Shown: positions 4,390 through 41,670 of the stretch, one piece after another
Layout of the letters: the number at the start of each line of letters is the position of its first letter
Numbering within the stretch: position 1 is the first letter of the stretch
The notes under the pieces: generated by a model
What the model was told of the DNA's origin: nothing
What the model saw: only the letters and a program-made list of their open reading frames with translations
Databases searched by the model: none
Source of the DNA: Escherichia coli
GTDB taxonomy: Bacteria; Pseudomonadota; Gammaproteobacteria; Enterobacterales; Enterobacteriaceae
Strand: one strand, 5' to 3'
DNA length: 64,000 bases
Assembly: GCF_050920415.1 (NCBI RefSeq)
Contig: NZ_CP169309.1
Program-made: the position numbers and the translations under genes

Positions 4390-5160
4390 ATGTTACGTAT
4401 TGCGGGCAAAACGTTTGATTCACATCTGTTTACCGGCACCGGGAAATTCGCCTCTTCACAATTGATGGTGGAGGCGATCCGCGCTTCCGGCAGCCAACTG
4501 GTGACGCTGGCGATGAAACGTGTCGACTTGCGCCAACACAACGATGCTATCCTCGATCCACTTATCGCGGCGGGTGTGACACTACTGCCAAATACTTCTG
4601 GGGCGAAAACTGCGGAAGAAGCCATTTTCGCCGCTCATCTGGCACGTGAAGCGTTAGGCACAAACTGGCTAAAATTAGAGATTCACCCTGACGCCCGCTG
4701 GCTGTTGCCCGATCCCATCGAAACCCTGAAAGCCGCCGAAATGTTGGTGCAACAGGGATTTGTCGTGCTGCCTTACTGCGGTGCCGATCCAGTGTTGTGC
4801 AAACGTCTGGAGGAAGTGGGCTGTGCAGCAGTAATGCCGCTCGGCGCACCAATTGGCTCTAATCAGGGACTGGAAACCCGCGCCATGCTGGAGATTATTA
4901 TCCAGCAAGCCACGGTTCCGGTGGTCGTTGATGCTGGCATTGGCGTTCCCAGCCATGCCGCGCAGGCGCTTGAAATGGGAGCCGATGCGGTGTTAGTGAA
5001 TACGGCGATTGCCGTCGCGGACGATCCCGTCAACATGGCGAAGGCATTTCGTCTGGCGGTAGACGCCGGCCTGCTGGCACGTCAGTCCGGGCCGGGCAGT
5101 CGCAGTCATTTTGCTCATGCCACTAGCCCGCTGACCGGATTTCTGGAGGCATCGGCATGA
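4390..5160 (+). CDS. thiG: Thiazole synthase ThiG, 256 aa
   Basis: ORF track 4279..5160 is extended; known start [11 protein letters not shown] at 4390, one nt after the thiS stop. Confidence 0.92.
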
Positions 5161-6290
5161 AAACCTTCAGCGATCGCTGGCGACAACTGGACTGGGACGA
5201 CATCCGCCTGCGTATCAACAGCAAAACGGCTGCTGACGTAGAGCGGGCGCTCAATGCCTCGCAACTCACTCGCGACGATATGATGGCATTGCTATCACCT
5301 GCCGCCAGTGAATACCTGGAACCACTGGCTCAACGGGCGCAGCGTCTGACCCGTCAGCGATTTGGCAACGTCATCAGCTTCTACGTCCCGCTTTATCTCT
5401 CTAATCTTTGCGCTAACGACTGCACTTACTGCGGATTTTCCATGAGCAATCGCATCAAGCGTAAAACGCTGGATGAAGCGGATATCGCCAGGGAAAGCGC
5501 CGCTATCCGGGAGATGGGCTTTGAACATCTATTGCTGGTCACTGGTGAACATCAGACGAAAGTGGGGATGGATTACTTTCGTCGTCATCTCCCTGTCCTG
5601 CGTGAACAGTTCTCTTCACTACAGATGGAAGTACAGCCACTGGCGGAAGCGGAATACGCCGAGTTAAAGCAACTTGGTCTGGATGGGGTGATGGTTTATC
5701 AGGAGACATATCACGAGGCGACATACGCCCACCATCATCTGAAAGGGAAAAAACAGGACTTCTTCTGGCGGCTGGAAACGCCGGATCGGCTGGGCCGTGC
5801 GGGGATAGATAAGATAGGCCTCGGCGCGCTAATCGGCCTTTCCGACAGCTGGCGCGTTGACTGCTATATGGTTGCCGAACATTTGCTATGGCTGCAACAA
5901 CATTACTGGCAAAGCCGTTACTCTGTCTCCTTCCCGCGCCTGCGCCCGTGTACTGGCGGGATTGAGCCAGCGTCGATTATGGATGAACGCCAGTTAGTGC
6001 AAACTATCTGCGCCTTCCGCCTACTTGCGCCGGAGATTGAACTGTCACTCTCCACGCGGGAATCACCGTGGTTTCGCGATCGCGTTATTCCGCTGGCGAT
6101 CAATAACGTCAGCGCCTTCTCGAAAACGCAACCAGGTGGTTATGCCGACAATCATCCCGAGCTGGAACAGTTCTCACCGCACGACGATCGCAGACCAGAA
6201 GCGGTGGCCGCCGCGTTAACCGCTCAGGGTTTGCAGCCGGTGTGGAAAGACTGGGACAGCTATCTGGGACGCGCCTCGCAAAGGACATGA
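5157..6290 (+). CDS. thiH: 2-iminoacetate synthase (tyrosine lyase) ThiH, radical SAM, 377 aa
   Basis: ORF track; [10 protein letters not shown] radical-SAM motif; overlaps thiG stop by 4 nt. Confidence 0.93.
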
Positions 6291-34727: not shown

Positions 34728-35087
34728 TTACTCAGCAACTTCCTGCTTACGGTTACGCATCTTCGCGCCAATCCAGAACACCATAATGACGGACAGTACT
34801 GCCGGGAAGAAGTTAGAGCCGATATCCGGATATTCCGCACGAACTACCGTGCTGTACAGCAGTACGCCGAGAATAAAACAAGCAGCAGCCAGACCCGGCA
34901 AGCCTACCGGCATAGTGCGATTAAGATAACGTTGATGCAGGCAGTAAACTGTCAGCACCAGGGAAATAATCGGGAATACAGAAAATGGCACAATGGAGCT
35001 AAACAGCGCTGCGAAAGTACCATTAATCGATAAGCCAGCAACTAACGCCAGCAGCAGCGTACCTCTATCTTGATTTGCTTGTTTCAT
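34728..35087 (-). CDS. yijD: Inner-membrane protein YijD, 119 aa
   Basis: ORF track; hydrophobic; start overlaps the fabR stop. Confidence 0.88.
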
Positions 35088-35791
35088 TACTCGTCCTTCA
35101 CATTTCCCGGAATAATTGCGGTTTTCTCTTGTTCACGGCGATACCAGTAATAAGCCCCTTTCGAAATCATTCGCAGTTGCAGTACCAGTCGCTCTTCTAA
35201 TTGCCGACGTTGTTCGACGCCGACGTCCAACGCCTCGGCACCCGCACTGAAGACAATCGTCACCATGGCTTCGGCTTGCGCTTCAGTAAACGCACGCGGC
35301 ATATGGTTTTCGAGTTCCAGATAGTCCGCAAGTTCCGCAATGAAGTGCTGAATTTCACGCGCAACGGCGGCACGAAACGCAGCGGAGGTGCCGGAGCGTT
35401 CCCGCAATAATAACCGGAAGGCGTTAGGATTATTACCGATGAACTCCATAAATGTGGAGACCGAGGTGCGGATCACACTCCCACCTTTGGCGATACGCTG
35501 ACGCGCCTGGCGCATGAGTTGGCGCAGCATTAAACCGCTCTCATCAACCATGGTCAGACCGAGTTCGTCTACGTCGCGAAAATGCCGATAAAAAGAGGTG
35601 GGAGCAATGCCCGCTTCACGCGCCACTTCACGCAAACTCAGGCTGGCGAAGCTGCGTTCAGCACTTAATTGGCTAAATGCGGCTTCCACCAACGAACGGC
35701 GGGTTTTTTCTTTTTGTTGCGCTCTTACGCCCATCACGATGTCTGAATCCTTGCCAAAAGTACTGCTGGCACTATACCAGAGAATGAACAT
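35087..35791 (-). CDS. fabR: TetR-family unsaturated fatty-acid biosynthesis repressor FabR
   Basis: ORF track 35087..35830; start uncertain between Met at 35791 (234 aa) and Met at 35734 (215 aa). Confidence 0.85.
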
Positions 35792-36068
35792 ACTGGATTG
35801 CTCCAGTGTTGTGAATGAACCGTAACGCAATAAAACATATTTACTGCAATTCTTTGGCCGGTTCTTTTACGAACATCGGAAACCTGCCGCTTAAACGGTG
35901 AGTATTGGCGATAAAAATCCAATAAAACGTTCAAGGCAAAAGTAAGAAACAGACAAAGCAAAGGCCGCTCACGATATAGCCAGATAAATGACGGGGATCA
36001 ATTGGCTTACCCGCGATAAAATGTTACCATTCTGTTGCTTTTATGTATAAGAACAGGTAAGCCCTACC

Positions 36069-37469
36069 ATGCCACATTCCTACGATTACGATGCCATAGT
36101 AATAGGTTCCGGCCCCGGCGGCGAAGGCGCTGCAATGGGCCTGGTTAAGCAAGGTGCGCGCGTCGCAGTTATCGAGCGTTATCAAAATGTTGGCGGCGGT
36201 TGCACCCACTGGGGCACCATCCCGTCGAAAGCTCTCCGTCACGCCGTCAGCCGCATTATAGAATTCAATCAAAACCCACTTTACAGCGACCATTCGCGAC
36301 TGCTCCGCTCTTCTTTTGCCGATATCCTTAACCATGCCGATAACGTGATTAATCAACAAACGCGCATGCGTCAGGGATTTTACGAACGTAATCACTGTGA
36401 AATATTGCAGGGGAACGCTCGCTTTGTTGACGAGCATACGTTGGCGCTGGATTGCCCGGACGGCAGCGTCGAAACACTAACCGCTGAAAAATTTGTTATT
36501 GCCTGTGGTTCTCGCCCTTATCATCCAACAGATGTTGATTTCACCCATCCACGCATTTACGACAGCGACTCAATTCTTAGCATGCACCACGAACCGCGCC
36601 ATGTACTTATCTATGGTGCTGGAGTGATCGGCTGTGAATATGCGTCGATCTTCCGCGGTATGGATGTAAAAGTGGATCTGATCAACACCCGCGATCGTCT
36701 GCTGGCGTTTCTCGATCAGGAGATGTCAGACTCTCTCTCCTATCACTTCTGGAACAGTGGCGTAGTGATTCGTCACAACGAAGAGTACGAAAAGATCGAA
36801 GGCTGTGACGACGGTGTGATTATGCATCTGAAGTCGGGCAAAAAGCTGAAAGCCGACTGTCTTCTCTATGCCAACGGTCGTACCGGTAATACCGATTCGC
36901 TGGCGTTACAGAACATTGGGCTGGAAACTGACAGTCGTGGACAGCTGAAGGTCAACAGCATGTATCAGACCGCACAGCCGCACGTTTACGCGGTGGGCGA
37001 CGTGATTGGTTATCCGAGCCTGGCGTCGGCAGCCTATGACCAGGGGCGCATTGCCGCGCAGGCGCTGGTGAAAGGTGAAGCCACCGCACATCTGATTGAA
37101 GATATCCCTACCGGCATTTACACCATTCCGGAAATCAGCTCTGTAGGCAAAACCGAACAGCAGCTGACCGCGATGAAAGTGCCGTATGAAGTGGGCCGCG
37201 CCCAGTTTAAACATCTGGCACGTGCACAAATCGTTGGCATGAACGTGGGTACGCTGAAAATTTTGTTCCATCGGGAAACAAAAGAGATTCTGGGCATTCA
37301 CTGCTTTGGCGAACGCGCTGCCGAGATTATCCATATCGGGCAGGCGATAATGGAACAGAAAGGTGGCGGCAACACTATTGAGTACTTCGTCAACACCACC
37401 TTTAACTACCCGACGATGGCGGAAGCCTATCGGGTAGCCGCGTTAAACGGTTTAAACCGCCTGTTTTAA
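36069..37469 (+). CDS. sthA: Soluble pyridine nucleotide transhydrogenase SthA (UdhA), 466 aa
   Basis: ORF track; FAD-binding GSGPGG motif. Confidence 0.95.
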
Positions 37470-38369
37470 CACTTTATCGAAATGGCCATCCATTCTTGCG
37501 CGGATGGCCTCTGCCAGCTGCTCATAGCGGCTGCGCAGCGGTGAGCCCGGACGATAAACCAGGCCAATAGTGCGGCGTGGTTCCGGCTTAATACACGGCA
37601 AATAAACAACCCCATCGCGTTTGCGCTCCGGCGGCACAGCCAGTGCAGGCAGTAAAGTGATCCCGCTACCTGCCGCCACCATGTTGCGCAGAGTTTCCAG
37701 GCTGGTCGCGCGGAAGTGTGTATCTTCATCCGCCCCGGCTTCAAAGCAGAAACCCATTGCCTGATCGCGCAAACAGTGACCATCTTCCAGCATCAGCAGT
37801 TTTTCCCCTGCCAGATCGGCCATCGGTACGCATTCGCGGTTCGCCCACGGGTGATCTTCATAGATAGCCAGCAACATTGGCTCATCAAACAACGGCACTT
37901 CAATGAATGCTTCGCTCTCTTTCACCAGCGCGAGGATCACGCAATCGAGTTTGCCGCTGTCCAGTTGCGCCAGTAACTGGTGGGTCTGTGCTTCATGCAG
38001 ATACATTTCCAGCTTTGGAAAGGTCTGGTGCAGCATCGGAATAATATGCGGTAACAGGTAAGGCCCAACCGTGGGAATCAAACCAATATGCAGCGGCCCG
38101 GACATTGTCTCGCCCTGCTGGCTTGCCATCTCTTTAAGGACTTTCACCTCACGCAGCACGGTACGCGCCTGATCCACCAGCAGCATTCCCGCCTGGGTGA
38201 ACAACACTTTACGGCTGGTCCGCTCCAGCAACATCACGCCCAGCTCATCTTCCAGCTTACGAATTTGCCCGCTAAGCGTCGGCTGGCTAACGTGGCAGGA
38301 ATCTGCCGCACGCCGAAAATGACGGTGTTCAGCCAATGCCACCAGGTACTCAAGATCACGAATATTCAT
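37452..38369 (-). CDS. oxyR: LysR-family hydrogen peroxide sensor/regulator OxyR, 305 aa
   Basis: ORF track 37452..38399; canonical start [18 protein letters not shown] at 38369; redox cysteines present (HCLRDQ and CIKPEP contexts); 18-nt convergent overlap with sthA. Confidence 0.95.
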
Positions 38370-38464
38370 TATCCATCCTCCATCGCCACGATAGTTCATG
38401 GCGATAGGTAGAATAGCAATGAACGATTATCCCTATCAAGCATTCTGACTGATAATTGCTCACA
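38370..38464. promoter_or_regulatory. Divergent oxyR/oxyS promoter region with OxyR operator
   Basis: 95 nt between the oxyR start and the oxyS 5' end; repeated ATAG-type elements; assignment from the known oxyR-oxyS architecture. Confidence 0.6.
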
Positions 38465-38578
38465 GAAACGGAGCGGCACCTCTTTTAACCCTTGAAGTCA
38501 CTGCCCGTTTCGAGAGTTTCTCAACTCGAATAACTAAAGCCAACGTGAACTTTTGCGGATCTCCAGGATCCGCTTTTT
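38465..38578 (+). ncRNA. oxyS: OxyS small regulatory RNA
   Basis: Sequence GAAACGGAGCGGCACCTCTTTTAACCCTTGAAGTCACTGCCCGTTTCGAGAGTTTCTCAACTCGAATAACTAAAGCCAACGTGAACTTTTGCGGATCTCCAGGATCCGCTTTTTTTT recognised, including the terminal hairpin and U-tract. Confidence 0.88.
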
Positions 38579-38620
38579 TTTATTCTACAGGCCCACAGCA
38601 AGAGAGCCTGATAGTAACAG

Positions 38621-39904
38621 TTACTCAATCCGATCTTTGACAATAAAGAAGTAACACAGCGCCCCGGTGAACGTCACACAGGCCGCGATAACCAGCGCCA
38701 GATTAAACGAGTGCGTGGTATCCACTACCCAACCGGTTACGATCGGAGCAAAGGAAGCAAAAACAAAACTGCCAAAGTTTTGAATCCCGGCGATGGAAGC
38801 CACTTTTGTTTCTGACACCATCACCTGCACCAGTCCCCATGCAGATGTTCCCGCGAAATGCACGCAGAACAGCGCCATTGAGATAAACGCTACAGCCTGG
38901 GCTGGCGAGGAGGATTGCACGACCAGCAACGTGCCTAATGCCGACATCATCAAACCGCAAACAATAGCCGTTTTACGCGTCTTCGCCAGGTCGTAGCCTT
39001 TTTTCGCCAGCCGATCGACAACAATACCGTTAACCCACATCCCGACCGCCGCCGCGAGGAAAGGAATCGCCGCCACCCAACCGGTTTTCGCCAGACTGAA
39101 GCCTTGCTCGGCTTGTAAATAACCGGGTAACCACGCGATGTAGAGCCAACCGGTATAATTGACGCCAGAGAAACCTAAAATCATCCCCCAGGTTGTCCGA
39201 TGCTTAAACAGCGCCAGCCACTCGCTAAATTGTAATTGTGGACGCGGTTTAACCGGCGCGGAGAGATAGGTCCGTTCTTCGTCGGTCAGGACAAACTGCG
39301 CCCGGTTGCGATACCACGCGTACCAACAGATCCCAACCAGAATCCCCGCCACGCCGATGATGACGAACATTGCCCGCCAGCCCCATGCCAGCTGCATCAA
39401 TACAAGAGCAGGAGGCGCAATAGCCTGACCGATAACGGTAGATGAGTTAAAAATCCCCAGCGCCGTGCCGCGTTCTTTTTGCGCATACCAGTCGGTGATC
39501 GACTTTACTCCCGCAGGCATAAATGGCGCTTCGCCAATACCCAGACCGATACGCATTAAAATAAAGTGGCTAAAAGAATTAACCATTCCTGTTAATGCCT
39601 GCATTAATGACCAGAATATTAAGCCTGCGCCTAAAACTATTCGTGGGCCAAAGCGGTCTAGCAAAATACCGGAAGGGAGTTGTGAAAAACCATAAGACAG
39701 AGAAAATGCAGAAAGCAAAACGCCAAATTCTGTCGCCGATAATCCTAACTCGCCACGAATCGCTTCGCCTGCCACGCTCAATGACGAACGGTCGAGGAAA
39801 TTAACGATCCCCGCCATAAATAATAAAACCAGCGTTACTGTCTGAATACGACGAATCCGTTGCGGTTTATTACCCGCAACACTGGTTGACACATCAACGT
39901 CCAT
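38621..39904 (-). CDS. MFS transporter, anion:cation symporter (ACS) family; putative sugar-acid (hexonate/hexuronate-type) permease, 427 aa
   Basis: ORF track; 12-TM hydrophobicity pattern; N-terminal NFLDR motif and overall similarity to DgoT/ExuT/GudP-type permeases; not at this locus in K-12 as I recall it. Confidence 0.8.
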   Translation of the reverse strand: MDVDVSTSVAGNKPQRIRRIQTVTLVLLFMAGIVNFLDRSSLSVAGEAIRGELGLSATEFGVLLSAFSLSYGFSQLPSGILLDRFGPRIVLGAGLIFWSLMQALTGMVNSFSHFILMRIGLGIGEAPFMPAGVKSITDWYAQKERGTALGIFNSSTVIGQAIAPPALVLMQLAWGWRAMFVIIGVAGILVGICWYAWYRNRAQFVLTDEERTYLSAPVKPRPQLQFSEWLALFKHRTTWGMILGFSGVNYTGWLYIAWLPGYLQAEQGFSLAKTGWVAAIPFLAAAVGMWVNGIVVDRLAKKGYDLAKTRKTAIVCGLMMSALGTLLVVQSSSPAQAVAFISMALFCVHFAGTSAWGLVQVMVSETKVASIAGIQNFGSFVFASFAPIVTGWVVDTTHSFNLALVIAACVTFTGALCYFFIVKDRIE

Positions 39905-39970
39905 TTTTAGCTCCTTGAGCGGAATTAATCGATTTGCTGACTATTCAGAAAATAATTAAGCGAACCGTTA

Positions 39971-41185
39971 TTACCAGTTCCACAATGTGCCATCTTCCAG
40001 TCGTGCGACGGGGAGATACGCCGGGTCATACGGATATTTCGCCGCCAGTTTCTCATCGAAAGAAATACCCAGCCCCGGTTCATCGCCTGGGTGCATATAA
40101 CCTTCATCGAAGCGCCAGCTGTGCGGGAAGACTTCAAGCATTTGTTCGGAATAGCCCATGTACTCCTGAACGCCAAAGTTTGGCACCCAGAGGTCAAAAT
40201 GCAGCGCCGCCGCATGACAAACAGGCGATAAATCTGAAGGGCCATGCGAACCGGTACGTACCTGATAAAGCGATGCAAAATCGGCAATCCGTCGCATCCC
40301 GGTAATGCCGCCTGCATGGGTAATCGTCGTGCGAATATAGTCAATCAGCTGCTCTTCGATTAACTGCTTGCAGTCCCAGATACTGTTAAACACTTCACCG
40401 ACCGCAATCGGCGTCACAGTATGCTGGCGAATCAGACGAAAACATTCCTGGTTCTCGGCAGGCGTCGGATCTTCCATCCAGAACAGGCGGTAATCCTCAA
40501 TGCTCTTCCCAAAGCGCGCCGCTTCGATAGGAGTCAGGCGATGGTGCATGTCATGCAACAGATGTTCGTTAAAACCGAACTTATTACGCACCGCTTCAAA
40601 TAACTTCGGTGTAAAATCGAGATACTTTTCTGAAGACCACAACTGCTCTTCCGGCCACAGGCCTTTGGTTGCCGGTTCATACGCCAGTCCTTTGCCCTTC
40701 GCCAGGCCATAAGTGGTTTGCATACCCGGTACACCGCACTGCACACGAATCGCCTTAAAGCCCATCAGCTGGTGCTTTGCATAGTCTTCAAGGACTTCAT
40801 CAATCGTGCGCCCGGTGGTGTGGCAATAAACCATCACGCCTTCACGAGAAGCCCCACCAAGCAGTTGATACAATGGCATATTTGCCGCTTTGGCTTTGAT
40901 ATCCCACAACGCCATATCAATGGCAGAAATGGCCGACATCGTGACGGGGCCACGTCGCCAGTAAGCACCTTTATAAAAGAATTGCCAGATATCTTCGATA
41001 CGGCTGGCATCGCGGCCAATTAATTGTGGACAAAGATGATCTTTCAGATAAGAAGCGACCGACAATTCGCGACCATTTAATGTGGCATCTCCCAATCCAC
41101 AAAGTCCGCTTGCAGTGGTTATTTTAAGCGTAACGAAATTACGTCTTGGGCAAGTAACAAAAACATCTGCAGCAATAATTTTCAT
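39971..41185 (-). CDS. Enolase-superfamily dehydratase, D-mannonate dehydratase (ManD)/RspA subgroup, 404 aa
   Basis: ORF track 39971..41245; start moved to ATG at 41185-41183 ([13 protein letters not shown]), preceded by RBS CAGGAG; hallmark RspA/ManD blocks [54 protein letters not shown]. Confidence 0.85.
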
Positions 41186-41670
41186 TATTGCAATCTCCTG
41201 TGTTGTAAATAGATGCTTCAAACTTAATTTTACGCCTACTACCATACAAGAGAGAAAGAGCGATTATTCAACCGTGATCACATTAAAAATAAAAATTTCC
41301 GCCGAGGAGAAAAAACACCCTCAAAAACCACCTGAATAATTAACCATTATCGTTAAAACAACACGTTAAATAATCACATAACAAACTCCATTAATCATTA
41401 AATATGAGCGCAGCAATAGAAATGAATTATATTCAATTAATTAAAATATGTATTGATTGATGTATTGAAAATATGATTTTCATGGGGAGAGTGAAGGTAA
41501 AGAAGACGCAAGAATAAAAAGGAATATGACAAATAATAGTTCTGGTTGGGCGTTAAATTTAAGGTCACCAGAATGCTGACAAATTTCTGCCTGAGGCAGT
41601 CCGCCTACGTAGTGTCGCTACTTTATAGGCGTGGTAAGCTCCCCATTTTCAGGGGAGCAATATAAACCAA
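41186..41670 (-). promoter_or_regulatory. AT-rich upstream region of the accessory operon (putative promoter)
   Basis: About 485 nt ORF-free, locally very AT-rich (e.g. 41340-41560), between the argH stop and the dehydratase start; no promoter elements assigned. Confidence 0.4.

What the first reader, a model, noticed from the sequence alone, without database searches (positions are those of the whole stretch)
37452..37469. 18 nt convergent overlap of sthA and oxyR 3' ends
The two stop codons sit 18 nt into each other's coding sequence, so neither gene can have a separate downstream terminator. Transcripts must end inside the partner gene or be processed, which allows mutual antisense interference between the transhydrogenase and the peroxide regulator.
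Basis: seen in the sequence. Interest (0 to 1): 0.2.

Follow-up and report, generated by a model that had tools for sequence, protein, structure and literature searches.

The report
Known sthA–oxyR tail-to-tail gene overlap
The ends of the E. coli genes sthA and oxyR really do overlap by 18 bases, but this is in the reference annotation, has been noted in papers, and is one of about 75 such overlaps in E. coli, so it is ordinary.

Summary
Confirmed and already known. sthA (+, 36069-37469) and oxyR (-, 37452-38369) share 18 nt (TTAAACCGCCTGTTTTAA). The codons are in register, and each TAA stop reads as Leu TTA on the other strand. E. coli K-12 has the same annotation.

The overlap is old. 77 of 79 Enterobacteriaceae species have exactly 18 nt and two have 27 nt. 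Erwinia, Hafnia, Edwardsiella and Serratia also have 18 nt. Pectobacterium has 9 nt, and Dickeya has a 116-nt spacer.

No canonical terminator lies near the overlap. Published data show that both transcripts end inside the partner gene:
- The sthA 3' end maps to 37514, 5 nt after hairpin 37484-37509. That hairpin has compensatory base changes across species.
- Rho-dependent regions map to about 37350 (oxyR sense) and 37844 (sthA sense).
- An RNase III-cleaved dsRNA cluster covers 37404-37748.
- The pair is listed among E. coli "excludons".

The one new observation is a second hairpin (37359-37403). It is conserved only in the oxyR-sense orientation, and synonymous variation in the last 45 sthA codons is suppressed. 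It probably marks the oxyR mRNA 3' end.

No regulatory effect of the antisense overlap has been shown. Low interest.

The parts
36069..37469 (+). sthA (udhA) coding sequence, soluble pyridine nucleotide transhydrogenase, 466 aa, stop TAA at 37467-37469
   Evidence: ORF; RefSeq annotation; 100% identical to K-12 SthA by tblastn
37452..38369 (-). oxyR coding sequence, 305 aa (true start MNIRDLEY at 38369), stop TAA at 37454-37452
   Evidence: ORF (listed with a 10-aa upstream extension); RefSeq annotation; K-12
37452..37469 (.). 18-nt tail-to-tail CDS overlap, TTAAACCGCCTGTTTTAA, codons in register; each stop is read as Leu TTA on the other strand
   Evidence: conserved in 77 of 79 Enterobacteriaceae species and in Erwinia, Hafnia, Serratia and Edwardsiella
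37484..37509 (+). Hairpin H1: 8-bp stem GGCCATCC/GGATGGCC with a 10-nt loop and no U tract. It starts 15 nt after the sthA stop and lies inside oxyR codons E-A-I-R...M-D-G-H. Proposed 3' stem-loop of sthA mRNA.
   Evidence: -15.1 kcal/mol. 97.6% of cells paired in 73 distinct sequences; 3 of 8 pairs have double compensatory changes; 0 of 500 shuffles reach the covariation score. The loop is hypervariable.
37514..37514 (+). Published dominant 3' end of sthA mRNA (K-12 4159345, minus strand there), 45 nt past the stop and 5 nt past the H1 stem
   Evidence: Adams 2021 Supplementary file 1, two entries with read counts 78428 and 54987; coordinate mapped via K-12 sequence
37359..37403 (-). Hairpin H3, in the oxyR-sense RNA 49-93 nt past the oxyR stop and antisense to sthA codons K-G-G-G-N-T...V-N-T-T-F. 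Followed by UUUCUGUU. Proposed oxyR 3' stem-loop or weak terminator.
   Evidence: -15.6 kcal/mol, z -2.4. 99.6% paired in the oxyR sense against 85.8% in the sthA sense. All six 4-fold sites in the stem lack purines in every species, against 7% of other sthA 4-fold sites.
37406..37437 (-). Hairpin H2 (CTACCCGA/TCGGGTAG) in the oxyR-sense RNA; weaker evidence
   Evidence: 96% paired, no compensatory changes
37342..37350 (-). Published end region of oxyR transcripts: Rho termination region K-12 4159509 (= 37350) and the operon end quoted from Conway et al. (= 37342)
   Evidence: Adams 2021 Supplementary file 2, Rho score 5.1, p 3e-16; Huang 2020 Table S1 overlap region 4157161-4157540 in U00096.2 coordinates
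37721..37844 (+). Region where sthA read-through transcripts end inside antisense oxyR: operon end 37721, Rho region 37844. The sthA-sense RNA is C-rich and G-poor here.
   Evidence: Huang 2020 Table S1; Adams 2021 Supplementary file 2, Rho score 5.8; GC skew -0.09 to -0.26 over 37600-37900
37404..37748 (.). Published p19-captured, RNase III-derived dsRNA cluster labelled 'oxyR sthA, 3', Convergent'
   Evidence: Huang 2020 mBio Table S1, clusters 268 and 345, U00096.2 4157134-4157478; duplex reads in Table S3

Best explanation
This is a real, ancient and ordinary tail-to-tail overlap of two unrelated housekeeping genes that abut with no intergenic DNA.

Because there is no spacer, the signals that make each mRNA's 3' end are written into the partner's coding sequence.
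- sthA transcripts run 45 nt into oxyR and end just after a conserved, U-tract-less stem-loop (H1). The most likely route is Rho-dependent termination further downstream, followed by 3'-to-5' exonuclease trimming back to the hairpin (inferred).
- oxyR transcripts run about 100-110 nt into sthA and end just after a second conserved stem-loop (H3), which has a U-rich tail. This is either weak intrinsic termination or Rho-dependent termination with hairpin protection (inferred).

As a by-product, the two mature mRNAs are complementary over roughly 170 nt or more. They form duplex RNA that RNase III cuts (shown in the literature). Any effect of this on SthA or OxyR levels is probably small (inferred).
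For: Overlap and annotation.

Conservation: 77 of 79 Enterobacteriaceae species have exactly 18 nt and two have 27 nt. Erwinia, Hafnia, Serratia and Edwardsiella also have 18 nt.

No canonical intrinsic terminator within about 1 kb on either side of the overlap.

sthA 3' end: Term-seq places it 5 nt after H1, and Rho regions are reported on both strands. H1 is stable and shows compensatory changes: A-U to G-C in 9 distinct sequences, G-C to A-U in 2, C-G to U-A in 1. OxyR Ile-to-Val changes are matched by synonymous Asp GAT-to-GAC changes. Dar & Sorek 2018 describe exactly this class: Rho-dependent transcripts ending just after stable stem-loops without a U tract.

oxyR 3' end: H3 pairs in 99.6% of cells in the oxyR sense against 85.8% in the sthA sense. 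Its six 4-fold sites never carry a purine, against 7% of other such sites. Third-position entropy in the last 45 sthA codons is 0.56-0.65, against about 1.05 for the rest of the gene.

dsRNA cluster and operon ends. Excludon listing.

Dickeya, where the genes are separated, has a classical terminator across the sthA stop and a degraded H3.
Against: The roles of H1 and H3 are inferred from position, conservation and other people's 3'-end data, not from mutants.

H1's strand cannot be assigned from wobble pairs: 98.8% paired in one orientation against 97.7% in the other.

H3 shows no double compensatory changes, only one-sided wobble-compatible changes.

Adams 2021 lists no dominant Term-seq 3' end for oxyR.

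The shuffle controls do not correct for phylogeny.

H1 is absent in Pseudocitrobacter and in one Enterobacter sp.. It is replaced by non-homologous hairpins in other families. The nearest public genome carries a stem-weakening SNP at 37503.

The Dickeya contrast is a single lineage.
Confidence: 0.7

Rival explanations
1. Functional excludon. The overlap is kept because convergent transcription and RNase III cleavage of the duplex make sthA and oxyR expression mutually antagonistic. This would couple NADPH/NADH balancing to the peroxide regulator. It is the stronger form of the first reader's reading.
For: Overlapping transcripts and RNase III-derived dsRNA exist at this locus. The pair is in the E. 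coli 'excludome'. The overlap has been held at exactly 18 nt across at least four Enterobacterales families. The JBC 2022 authors raise the same idea.
Against: No expression effect has been reported. The values listed for SthA and OxyR in the rnc-mutant proteomics table are small (1.17-1.37 and 0.67-1.26). Huang 2020 found 3' (convergent) overlaps much poorer in dsRNA than 5' overlaps. Dickeya and Pectobacterium have loosened or lost the overlap. Conservation of the 18 nt is explained more simply by double coding constraint on 15 shared coding bases.
Confidence: 0.15
2. The hairpins are coding by-products. H1 and H3 reflect amino-acid and codon-usage constraints of OxyR and SthA. Transcript ends are set only by Rho and/or head-on RNA polymerase collisions, not by these structures.
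For: Both helices sit in conserved protein segments. H3 arises from a quasi-palindromic peptide, K-G-G-G-N-T / V-N-T-T-F. H3 has no double compensatory change. Rho-sensitive regions are reported on both strands. Collision-assisted termination at convergent genes is described in bioRxiv 10.1101/2022.10.23.513370.
Against: In H1, the synonymous Asp GAT/GAC choice tracks the paired Ile/Val codon with no A.C combination seen. In H3, six of six 4-fold sites exclude purines, against 7% of other such sites in the same gene, while the loop 4-fold site takes all four bases. The published sthA 3' end falls exactly 5 nt after H1.
Confidence: 0.12
3. Artefact: a sequencing or annotation error has misplaced one of the stop codons.
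For: None found.
Against: The same arrangement is present in K-12, in 5425 complete E. coli genomes and in 77 of 79 other species. Both C-terminal peptides are conserved.
Confidence: 0.01

Closest known systems
Convergent (tail-to-tail) overlapping gene pairs of bacteria; 75 pairs in E. coli according to Huvet & Stumpf 2014 (PMC4161906)
   Same: Two real genes on opposite strands share their last few codons. The overlap is short and arises from where the stop codons sit. Such pairs are more conserved than non-overlapping neighbours.
   Different: Nothing essential. This is one of those 75 pairs. The overlap itself was pointed out in JBC 2022 (PMC9460512), which counts it as 12 nt without the stop codons.
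Excludons (overlapping transcription of neighbouring opposite-strand genes with RNase III processing); ExcludonFinder 2025 (PMC12288877)
   Same: Convergent transcripts overlap, RNase III-derived dsRNA is documented, and the pair is explicitly listed in the E. coli excludome.
   Different: The defining outcome, mutually exclusive expression, has not been shown for oxyR-sthA.
3' stem-loops of Rho-dependent transcripts (Dar & Sorek 2018, PMC6061677)
   Same: H1 is a stable stem-loop without a U tract. The steady-state 3' end lies immediately downstream of it. A Rho-sensitive, C-rich and G-poor region lies further downstream.
   Different: Here the stem-loop lies inside, and antisense to, another gene's coding sequence, so it evolves under double constraint. 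Protection from PNPase and RNase II was not tested for this transcript.
Bidirectional intrinsic terminators shared by convergent genes (the work cited)
   Same: Convergent genes with little or no spacer need termination in both directions.
   Different: There is no single shared hairpin flanked by A and U tracts. Two separate hairpins sit about 100 nt apart, one in each gene. Neither passed the canonical terminator scan.

Membership tests
Convergent overlapping gene pair | Two genuine protein-coding genes on opposite strands whose 3' ends share nucleotides | tested here: met
Convergent overlapping gene pair | The overlap is conserved in orthologous pairs and is not an annotation accident | tested here: met
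   77 of 79 Enterobacteriaceae species plus four other genera have 18 nt. Exceptions: Dickeya and Pectobacterium.
Excludon | Transcripts of the two neighbouring genes overlap | not testable with these tools
   Taken from the literature only: Adams 2021, Huang 2020 quoting Conway et al., ExcludonFinder. All report overlap.
Excludon | The duplex is processed by RNase III | not testable with these tools
   Literature only: p19-captured dsRNA clusters 268 and 345 in Huang 2020.
Excludon | Mutually exclusive expression: activating one gene represses the other | not testable with these tools
   No report found. The values listed for both proteins in the rnc-mutant proteomics table are small.
Rho-dependent 3'-end stem-loop (Dar & Sorek class) | An energetically stable stem-loop that is not followed by a U-rich tract | tested here: met
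   H1 is -15.1 kcal/mol and is followed by UCUGCCAG. It was not called as an intrinsic terminator.
Rho-dependent 3'-end stem-loop (Dar & Sorek class) | The steady-state 3' end lies immediately downstream of the stem, with Rho-sensitive read-through beyond it | not testable with these tools
   Literature: 3' end 5 nt after the stem, and a Rho region 330 nt further on. The C-rich skew downstream was computed here.
Rho-dependent 3'-end stem-loop (Dar & Sorek class) | The stem-loop protects the transcript from PNPase and RNase II | not tested
   Needs mutants.
Canonical intrinsic or bidirectional terminator | A G+C-rich hairpin with a 3-8 nt loop followed by a run of U (and preceded by a run of A if bidirectional) | tested here: not met
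   The scan found none between 36373 and 38554. H1 has no U tract. H3 has AAA/UUU flanks and a UUUCUGUU tail, but its apical loop is 13 nt and its stem is interrupted.
Known Rfam RNA family | A match to a curated covariance model | tested here: not met
   Only OxyS (38465-38574) matched in 35000-40000 at E up to 1.

The most novel reading that the evidence does not exclude
The two embedded stem-loops, H1 in oxyR and H3 in sthA, would be selected insulators of a conserved Enterobacterales excludon. They would set how far each polymerase invades the partner gene, so that sthA induction tunes OxyR levels (or the reverse) through collision and RNase III cleavage. This would link pyridine-nucleotide balance to peroxide sensing.
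Probability: 0.1. Interest if true: 0.4.

Novelty: already known. Interest (0 to 1): 0.15.

Why it matters
It matters little beyond this locus. The overlap is in the reference annotation. Its possible regulatory meaning has been raised in print (JBC 2022). Genome-wide studies have already catalogued the transcript overlap, the dsRNA and the excludon listing.

The comparative analysis here adds a small worked example of 3'-end-forming RNA structures encoded inside, and antisense to, a neighbour's coding sequence. They leave a measurable footprint on synonymous sites: the last 45 codons of sthA. This is relevant to anyone recoding or deleting either gene. A 'clean' deletion of oxyR removes the sthA mRNA 3' stem-loop. 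Synonymous recoding of the sthA 3' end may alter oxyR mRNA.

Tried and rejected
- Canonical promoter and terminator scan of 35800-38800. Only the OxyS terminator and one weak site inside sthA were found, and nothing near the overlap.
- Rfam scan at E up to 1. Only OxyS matched.
- Other 3'-end datasets:
  - The id tried for Ju et al. 2019 (PMC6814526) is not held.
  - The Dar & Sorek supplements are not held.
  - The SMRT-Cappable-seq supplements do not mention either gene.
  - The nanopore and RNase III cleavage-site supplements are not held.
- Assigning H1 to one strand from G.U wobble pairs was inconclusive: 98.8% against 97.7%.
- H2 (37406-37437) was considered as part of an oxyR 3' structure. 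It has 96% pairing, real mismatches and no compensatory changes, so it is kept only as 'possible'.
- 4-fold-site statistics for H1 could not be computed, because the amino acids in its stem vary.
- The Brenneria look-up found no record.
- The Pectobacterium gene call (314 aa, 43-nt overlap) was rejected as a frameshifted product. In the OxyR-homologous frame the overlap is 9 nt.
- The 12-nt palindrome CGGTTTAAACCG at 37448-37459 was rejected as a feature, because most other species have CGGCTTAAACCG.
- Outgroups beyond Enterobacterales were not sampled. I relied on the JBC 2022 statement that the arrangement is absent from A. vinelandii and P. fluorescens.

Full report
OBSERVATION. The window is Escherichia coli. 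The 8.8-kb stretch compared differs at only two bases from strain MFDS1022581. sthA runs 36069-37469 on the + strand and ends TAA at 37467-37469. oxyR runs 38369-37452 on the minus strand and ends TAA, which is TTA at 37452-37454 on the + strand. The shared 18 nt are TTA AAC CGC CTG TTT TAA. This reads L-N-R-L-F-stop for SthA. Its reverse complement, TTA AAA CAG GCG GTT TAA, reads L-K-Q-A-V-stop for OxyR. The two frames are in exact codon register, and each gene's TAA is the other gene's Leu TTA. The K-12 MG1655 reference has the identical arrangement: oxyR 4158490..4159407 and sthA 4159390..4160790.

IS IT UNUSUAL? No. [quoted passage not shown] This particular overlap was pointed out in J Biol Chem 2022 (PMC9460512). 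That paper calls it a 12-nucleotide overlap, not counting stops, and speculates about transcriptional regulation.

A scan of one genome per species with SthA returned 80 Enterobacteriaceae loci.
- In the 79 loci that hold both genes, they are always convergent. 77 have exactly 18 nt of overlap.
- Two have 27 nt (Enterobacter soli, Pluralibacter gergoviae). There, a synonymous change of the sthA Leu codon destroys the oxyR stop.
- Outside the family, Erwinia, Hafnia, Serratia and Edwardsiella also have 18 nt.
- Pectobacteriaceae differ. In Pectobacterium, a synonymous sthA CTG-to-TTA change creates an earlier oxyR stop, leaving 9 nt of overlap. The deposited gene call there is frameshifted.
- In Dickeya, the genes are separated by a 116-nt AT-rich repetitive spacer. 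A diverged copy of the 18-mer sits at each gene end, and a classical hairpin-plus-U terminator spans the sthA stop.
- The SthA tail ALNGLNRLF is invariant in all of these species. The OxyR tail is LKQAV wherever the 18-nt overlap exists and differs elsewhere.

The overlap therefore predates the split of several Enterobacterales families. A sequencing error is excluded.

WHERE THE TRANSCRIPTS END. A consensus scan finds no intrinsic terminator between 36373 and 38554. Rfam finds only OxyS, at 38465-38574. Published maps fill the gap.
- Adams et al. 2021 (eLife, PMC7815308) list a dominant 'primary' 3' end for sthA at K-12 4159345. This maps to window 37514, 45 nt past the stop and inside oxyR. 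It appears in two entries with read counts of 78428 and 54987, similar to the OxyS 3' end (63516).
- The same paper's bicyclomycin experiment reports a Rho termination region at 4159509 on the oxyR strand. This maps to window 37350, 102 nt past the oxyR stop, with Rho score 5.1.
- It reports a second Rho region at 4159015 on the sthA strand. This maps to window 37844, 375 nt past the sthA stop, with Rho score 5.8.
- Huang et al. 2020 (mBio, PMC7373196) list a p19-captured, RNase III-derived dsRNA cluster labelled 'oxyR sthA, 3', Convergent' at window 37404-37748, in both growth phases. They quote operon ends equivalent to window 37721 for sthA and 37342 for oxyR.
- ExcludonFinder (NAR 2025, PMC12288877) lists oxyR-sthA among 165 convergent excludons found in at least half of 58 RNA-seq datasets.

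The two RNAs do meet as duplex in vivo.

WHAT THE SEQUENCE ADDS: H1.
- Fifteen nt after the sthA stop lies an 8-bp hairpin, GGCCATCC (37484-37491) and GGATGGCC (37502-37509), with a 10-nt loop and a free energy of -15.1 kcal/mol. It is followed by UCUGC, not a U tract.
- The published 3' end is the C five nt after the stem.
- Across 73 distinct Enterobacteriaceae sequences, 97.6% of cells pair and the loop is hypervariable.
- Three of the eight pairs show double compensatory changes: A-U to G-C nine times, G-C to A-U twice, C-G to U-A once. No shuffle out of 500 reached the observed covariation score.
- In oxyR terms, Ile-to-Val (ATC to GTC) is always matched by the synonymous Asp change GAT to GAC. 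Two G.U intermediates occur and no A.C combination occurs.
- This fits the class described by Dar & Sorek 2018 (PMC6061677): Rho-dependent transcripts whose steady-state 3' ends sit just after stable stem-loops without U tracts, which protect against PNPase and RNase II.
- The sthA-sense RNA downstream (37600-37900) is C-rich and G-poor, as expected for Rho loading.
- Caveats. H1 is missing in Pseudocitrobacter and in one Enterobacter sp. Other families have different hairpins in the same 60 nt. Wobble pairs do not tell which strand is selected. The nearest public genome has a stem-weakening synonymous SNP at 37503.

WHAT THE SEQUENCE ADDS: H3.
- On the oxyR-sense strand, 49-93 nt past the oxyR stop, the sthA codons K-G-G-G-N-T...V-N-T-T-F form a 15-pair interrupted hairpin (37359-37403). 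Its free energy is -15.6 kcal/mol with z -2.4, against z -0.9 for the sthA-sense strand.
- It is followed by UUUCUGUU. The published oxyR transcript ends (37342-37350) lie 9-17 nt beyond its base.
- Across 79 species it pairs in 99.6% of cells in the oxyR sense but only 85.8% in the sthA sense. Every variable position is a purine opposite U on the oxyR-sense strand.
- All six 4-fold degenerate sites in the stem carry only pyrimidines on the + strand in every species. Only 7% of the other 140 conserved-residue 4-fold sites of sthA show this. The 4-fold site in the loop takes all four bases.
- Third-position entropy over the last 45 sthA codons is 0.56-0.65, against about 1.05 for the rest of the gene.
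- A comparable hairpin persists in Erwinia, Hafnia, Serratia and Pectobacterium. It is weaker in Edwardsiella and weakest in Dickeya, the one lineage with a spacer.
- H3 has no double compensatory changes, and Adams et al. list no dominant oxyR 3' end. Its role as the oxyR 3' stem-loop or weak terminator is therefore an inference, which I put at about 55%.
- A neighbouring hairpin, H2 (37406-37437), is less well supported.

MECHANISM, WITH STATUS.
- Shown in the sequence or the literature: the overlap, its age, the absence of an intergenic terminator, the sthA 3' end inside oxyR, Rho-sensitive regions on both strands, and RNase III-derived dsRNA.
- Inferred: H1 is the protective 3' stem-loop of a Rho-terminated sthA mRNA. 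H3 is the corresponding element, or a weak intrinsic terminator, for oxyR. Both are kept by selection acting on synonymous or conservative sites of the partner gene.
- Not shown: any regulatory consequence. The rnc-mutant proteomics table lists values of 1.37 and 1.17 for SthA and 1.26 and 0.67 for OxyR. I read these as fold changes and did not resolve which tab is which condition. Huang et al. found convergent 3' overlaps much poorer in dsRNA than divergent 5' overlaps.
- My best reading is that the antisense contact is a tolerated by-product limited by H1, H3 and Rho, rather than a control device.

COMPARISON AND VERDICT. The feature is a member of the well-known class of convergent overlapping gene pairs. 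It has already been catalogued as an excludon candidate. The defining excludon property, mutually exclusive expression, is untested. It is not a shared bidirectional intrinsic terminator. Novelty: already known. Interest: low (0.15). The only modest addition is the comparative evidence for two 3'-end stem-loops embedded in the partner's coding sequence. This has a practical implication: deleting or recoding one gene may disturb the other's mRNA.

Noticed in passing
window 38621-41200 (approx.): An MFS transporter gene, annotated as a pseudogene with an internal stop in the nearest genome, and manD (D-mannonate dehydratase) lie between oxyS and argH. K-12 has argH directly next to oxyS, so this is a strain-variable insertion.
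   Followed up: partly
window 37503: The nearest public genome (NZ_CP169399.1) differs from the window at only two positions in 8.8 kb. One is G (window) against T at 37503. It is synonymous in oxyR (ATC/ATA Ile) and breaks a C-G pair of hairpin H1.
   Followed up: partly
L084 3908-4023 (Dickeya dianthicola): The 116-nt spacer that separates sthA and oxyR is AT-rich and made of repeats of AAATCAAT(C/T)GTTTT(G/A)TT-like units. It is flanked by diverged copies of the 18-mer, as if an insertion with duplication had split an ancestral overlap. sthA there ends in a classical hairpin-plus-U terminator spanning its stop.
   Followed up: partly
L088 2865-3809 (Pectobacterium zantedeschiae CP139172.1): oxyR is frameshifted near residue 250 in this record (tblastn frames -2 then -1). 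The called 314-aa product is therefore either a pseudogene or an assembly error.
   Followed up: partly
L083-L087, about 4940-5700: In Erwinia, Dickeya, Hafnia, Serratia and Edwardsiella, the gene divergent from oxyR is a 243-244 aa peroxiredoxin-glutaredoxin fusion (AhpC-TSA + Glutaredoxin Pfam hits). E. coli has oxyS at that position.
   Followed up: no
window 37511-37538: A second strong hairpin (CUGCCAGCUGCUCAUAGCGGCUGCGCAG) lies just after the mapped sthA 3' end, in the conserved OxyR segment RYEQLAEA. It recurs in Erwinia. It may matter for read-through transcripts.
   Followed up: no
window 37448-37459: A perfect 12-nt palindrome, CGGTTTAAACCG, is centred next to the oxyR stop. Among the sequences compared, most other species have CGGCTTAAACCG, so it is probably incidental.
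   Followed up: yes
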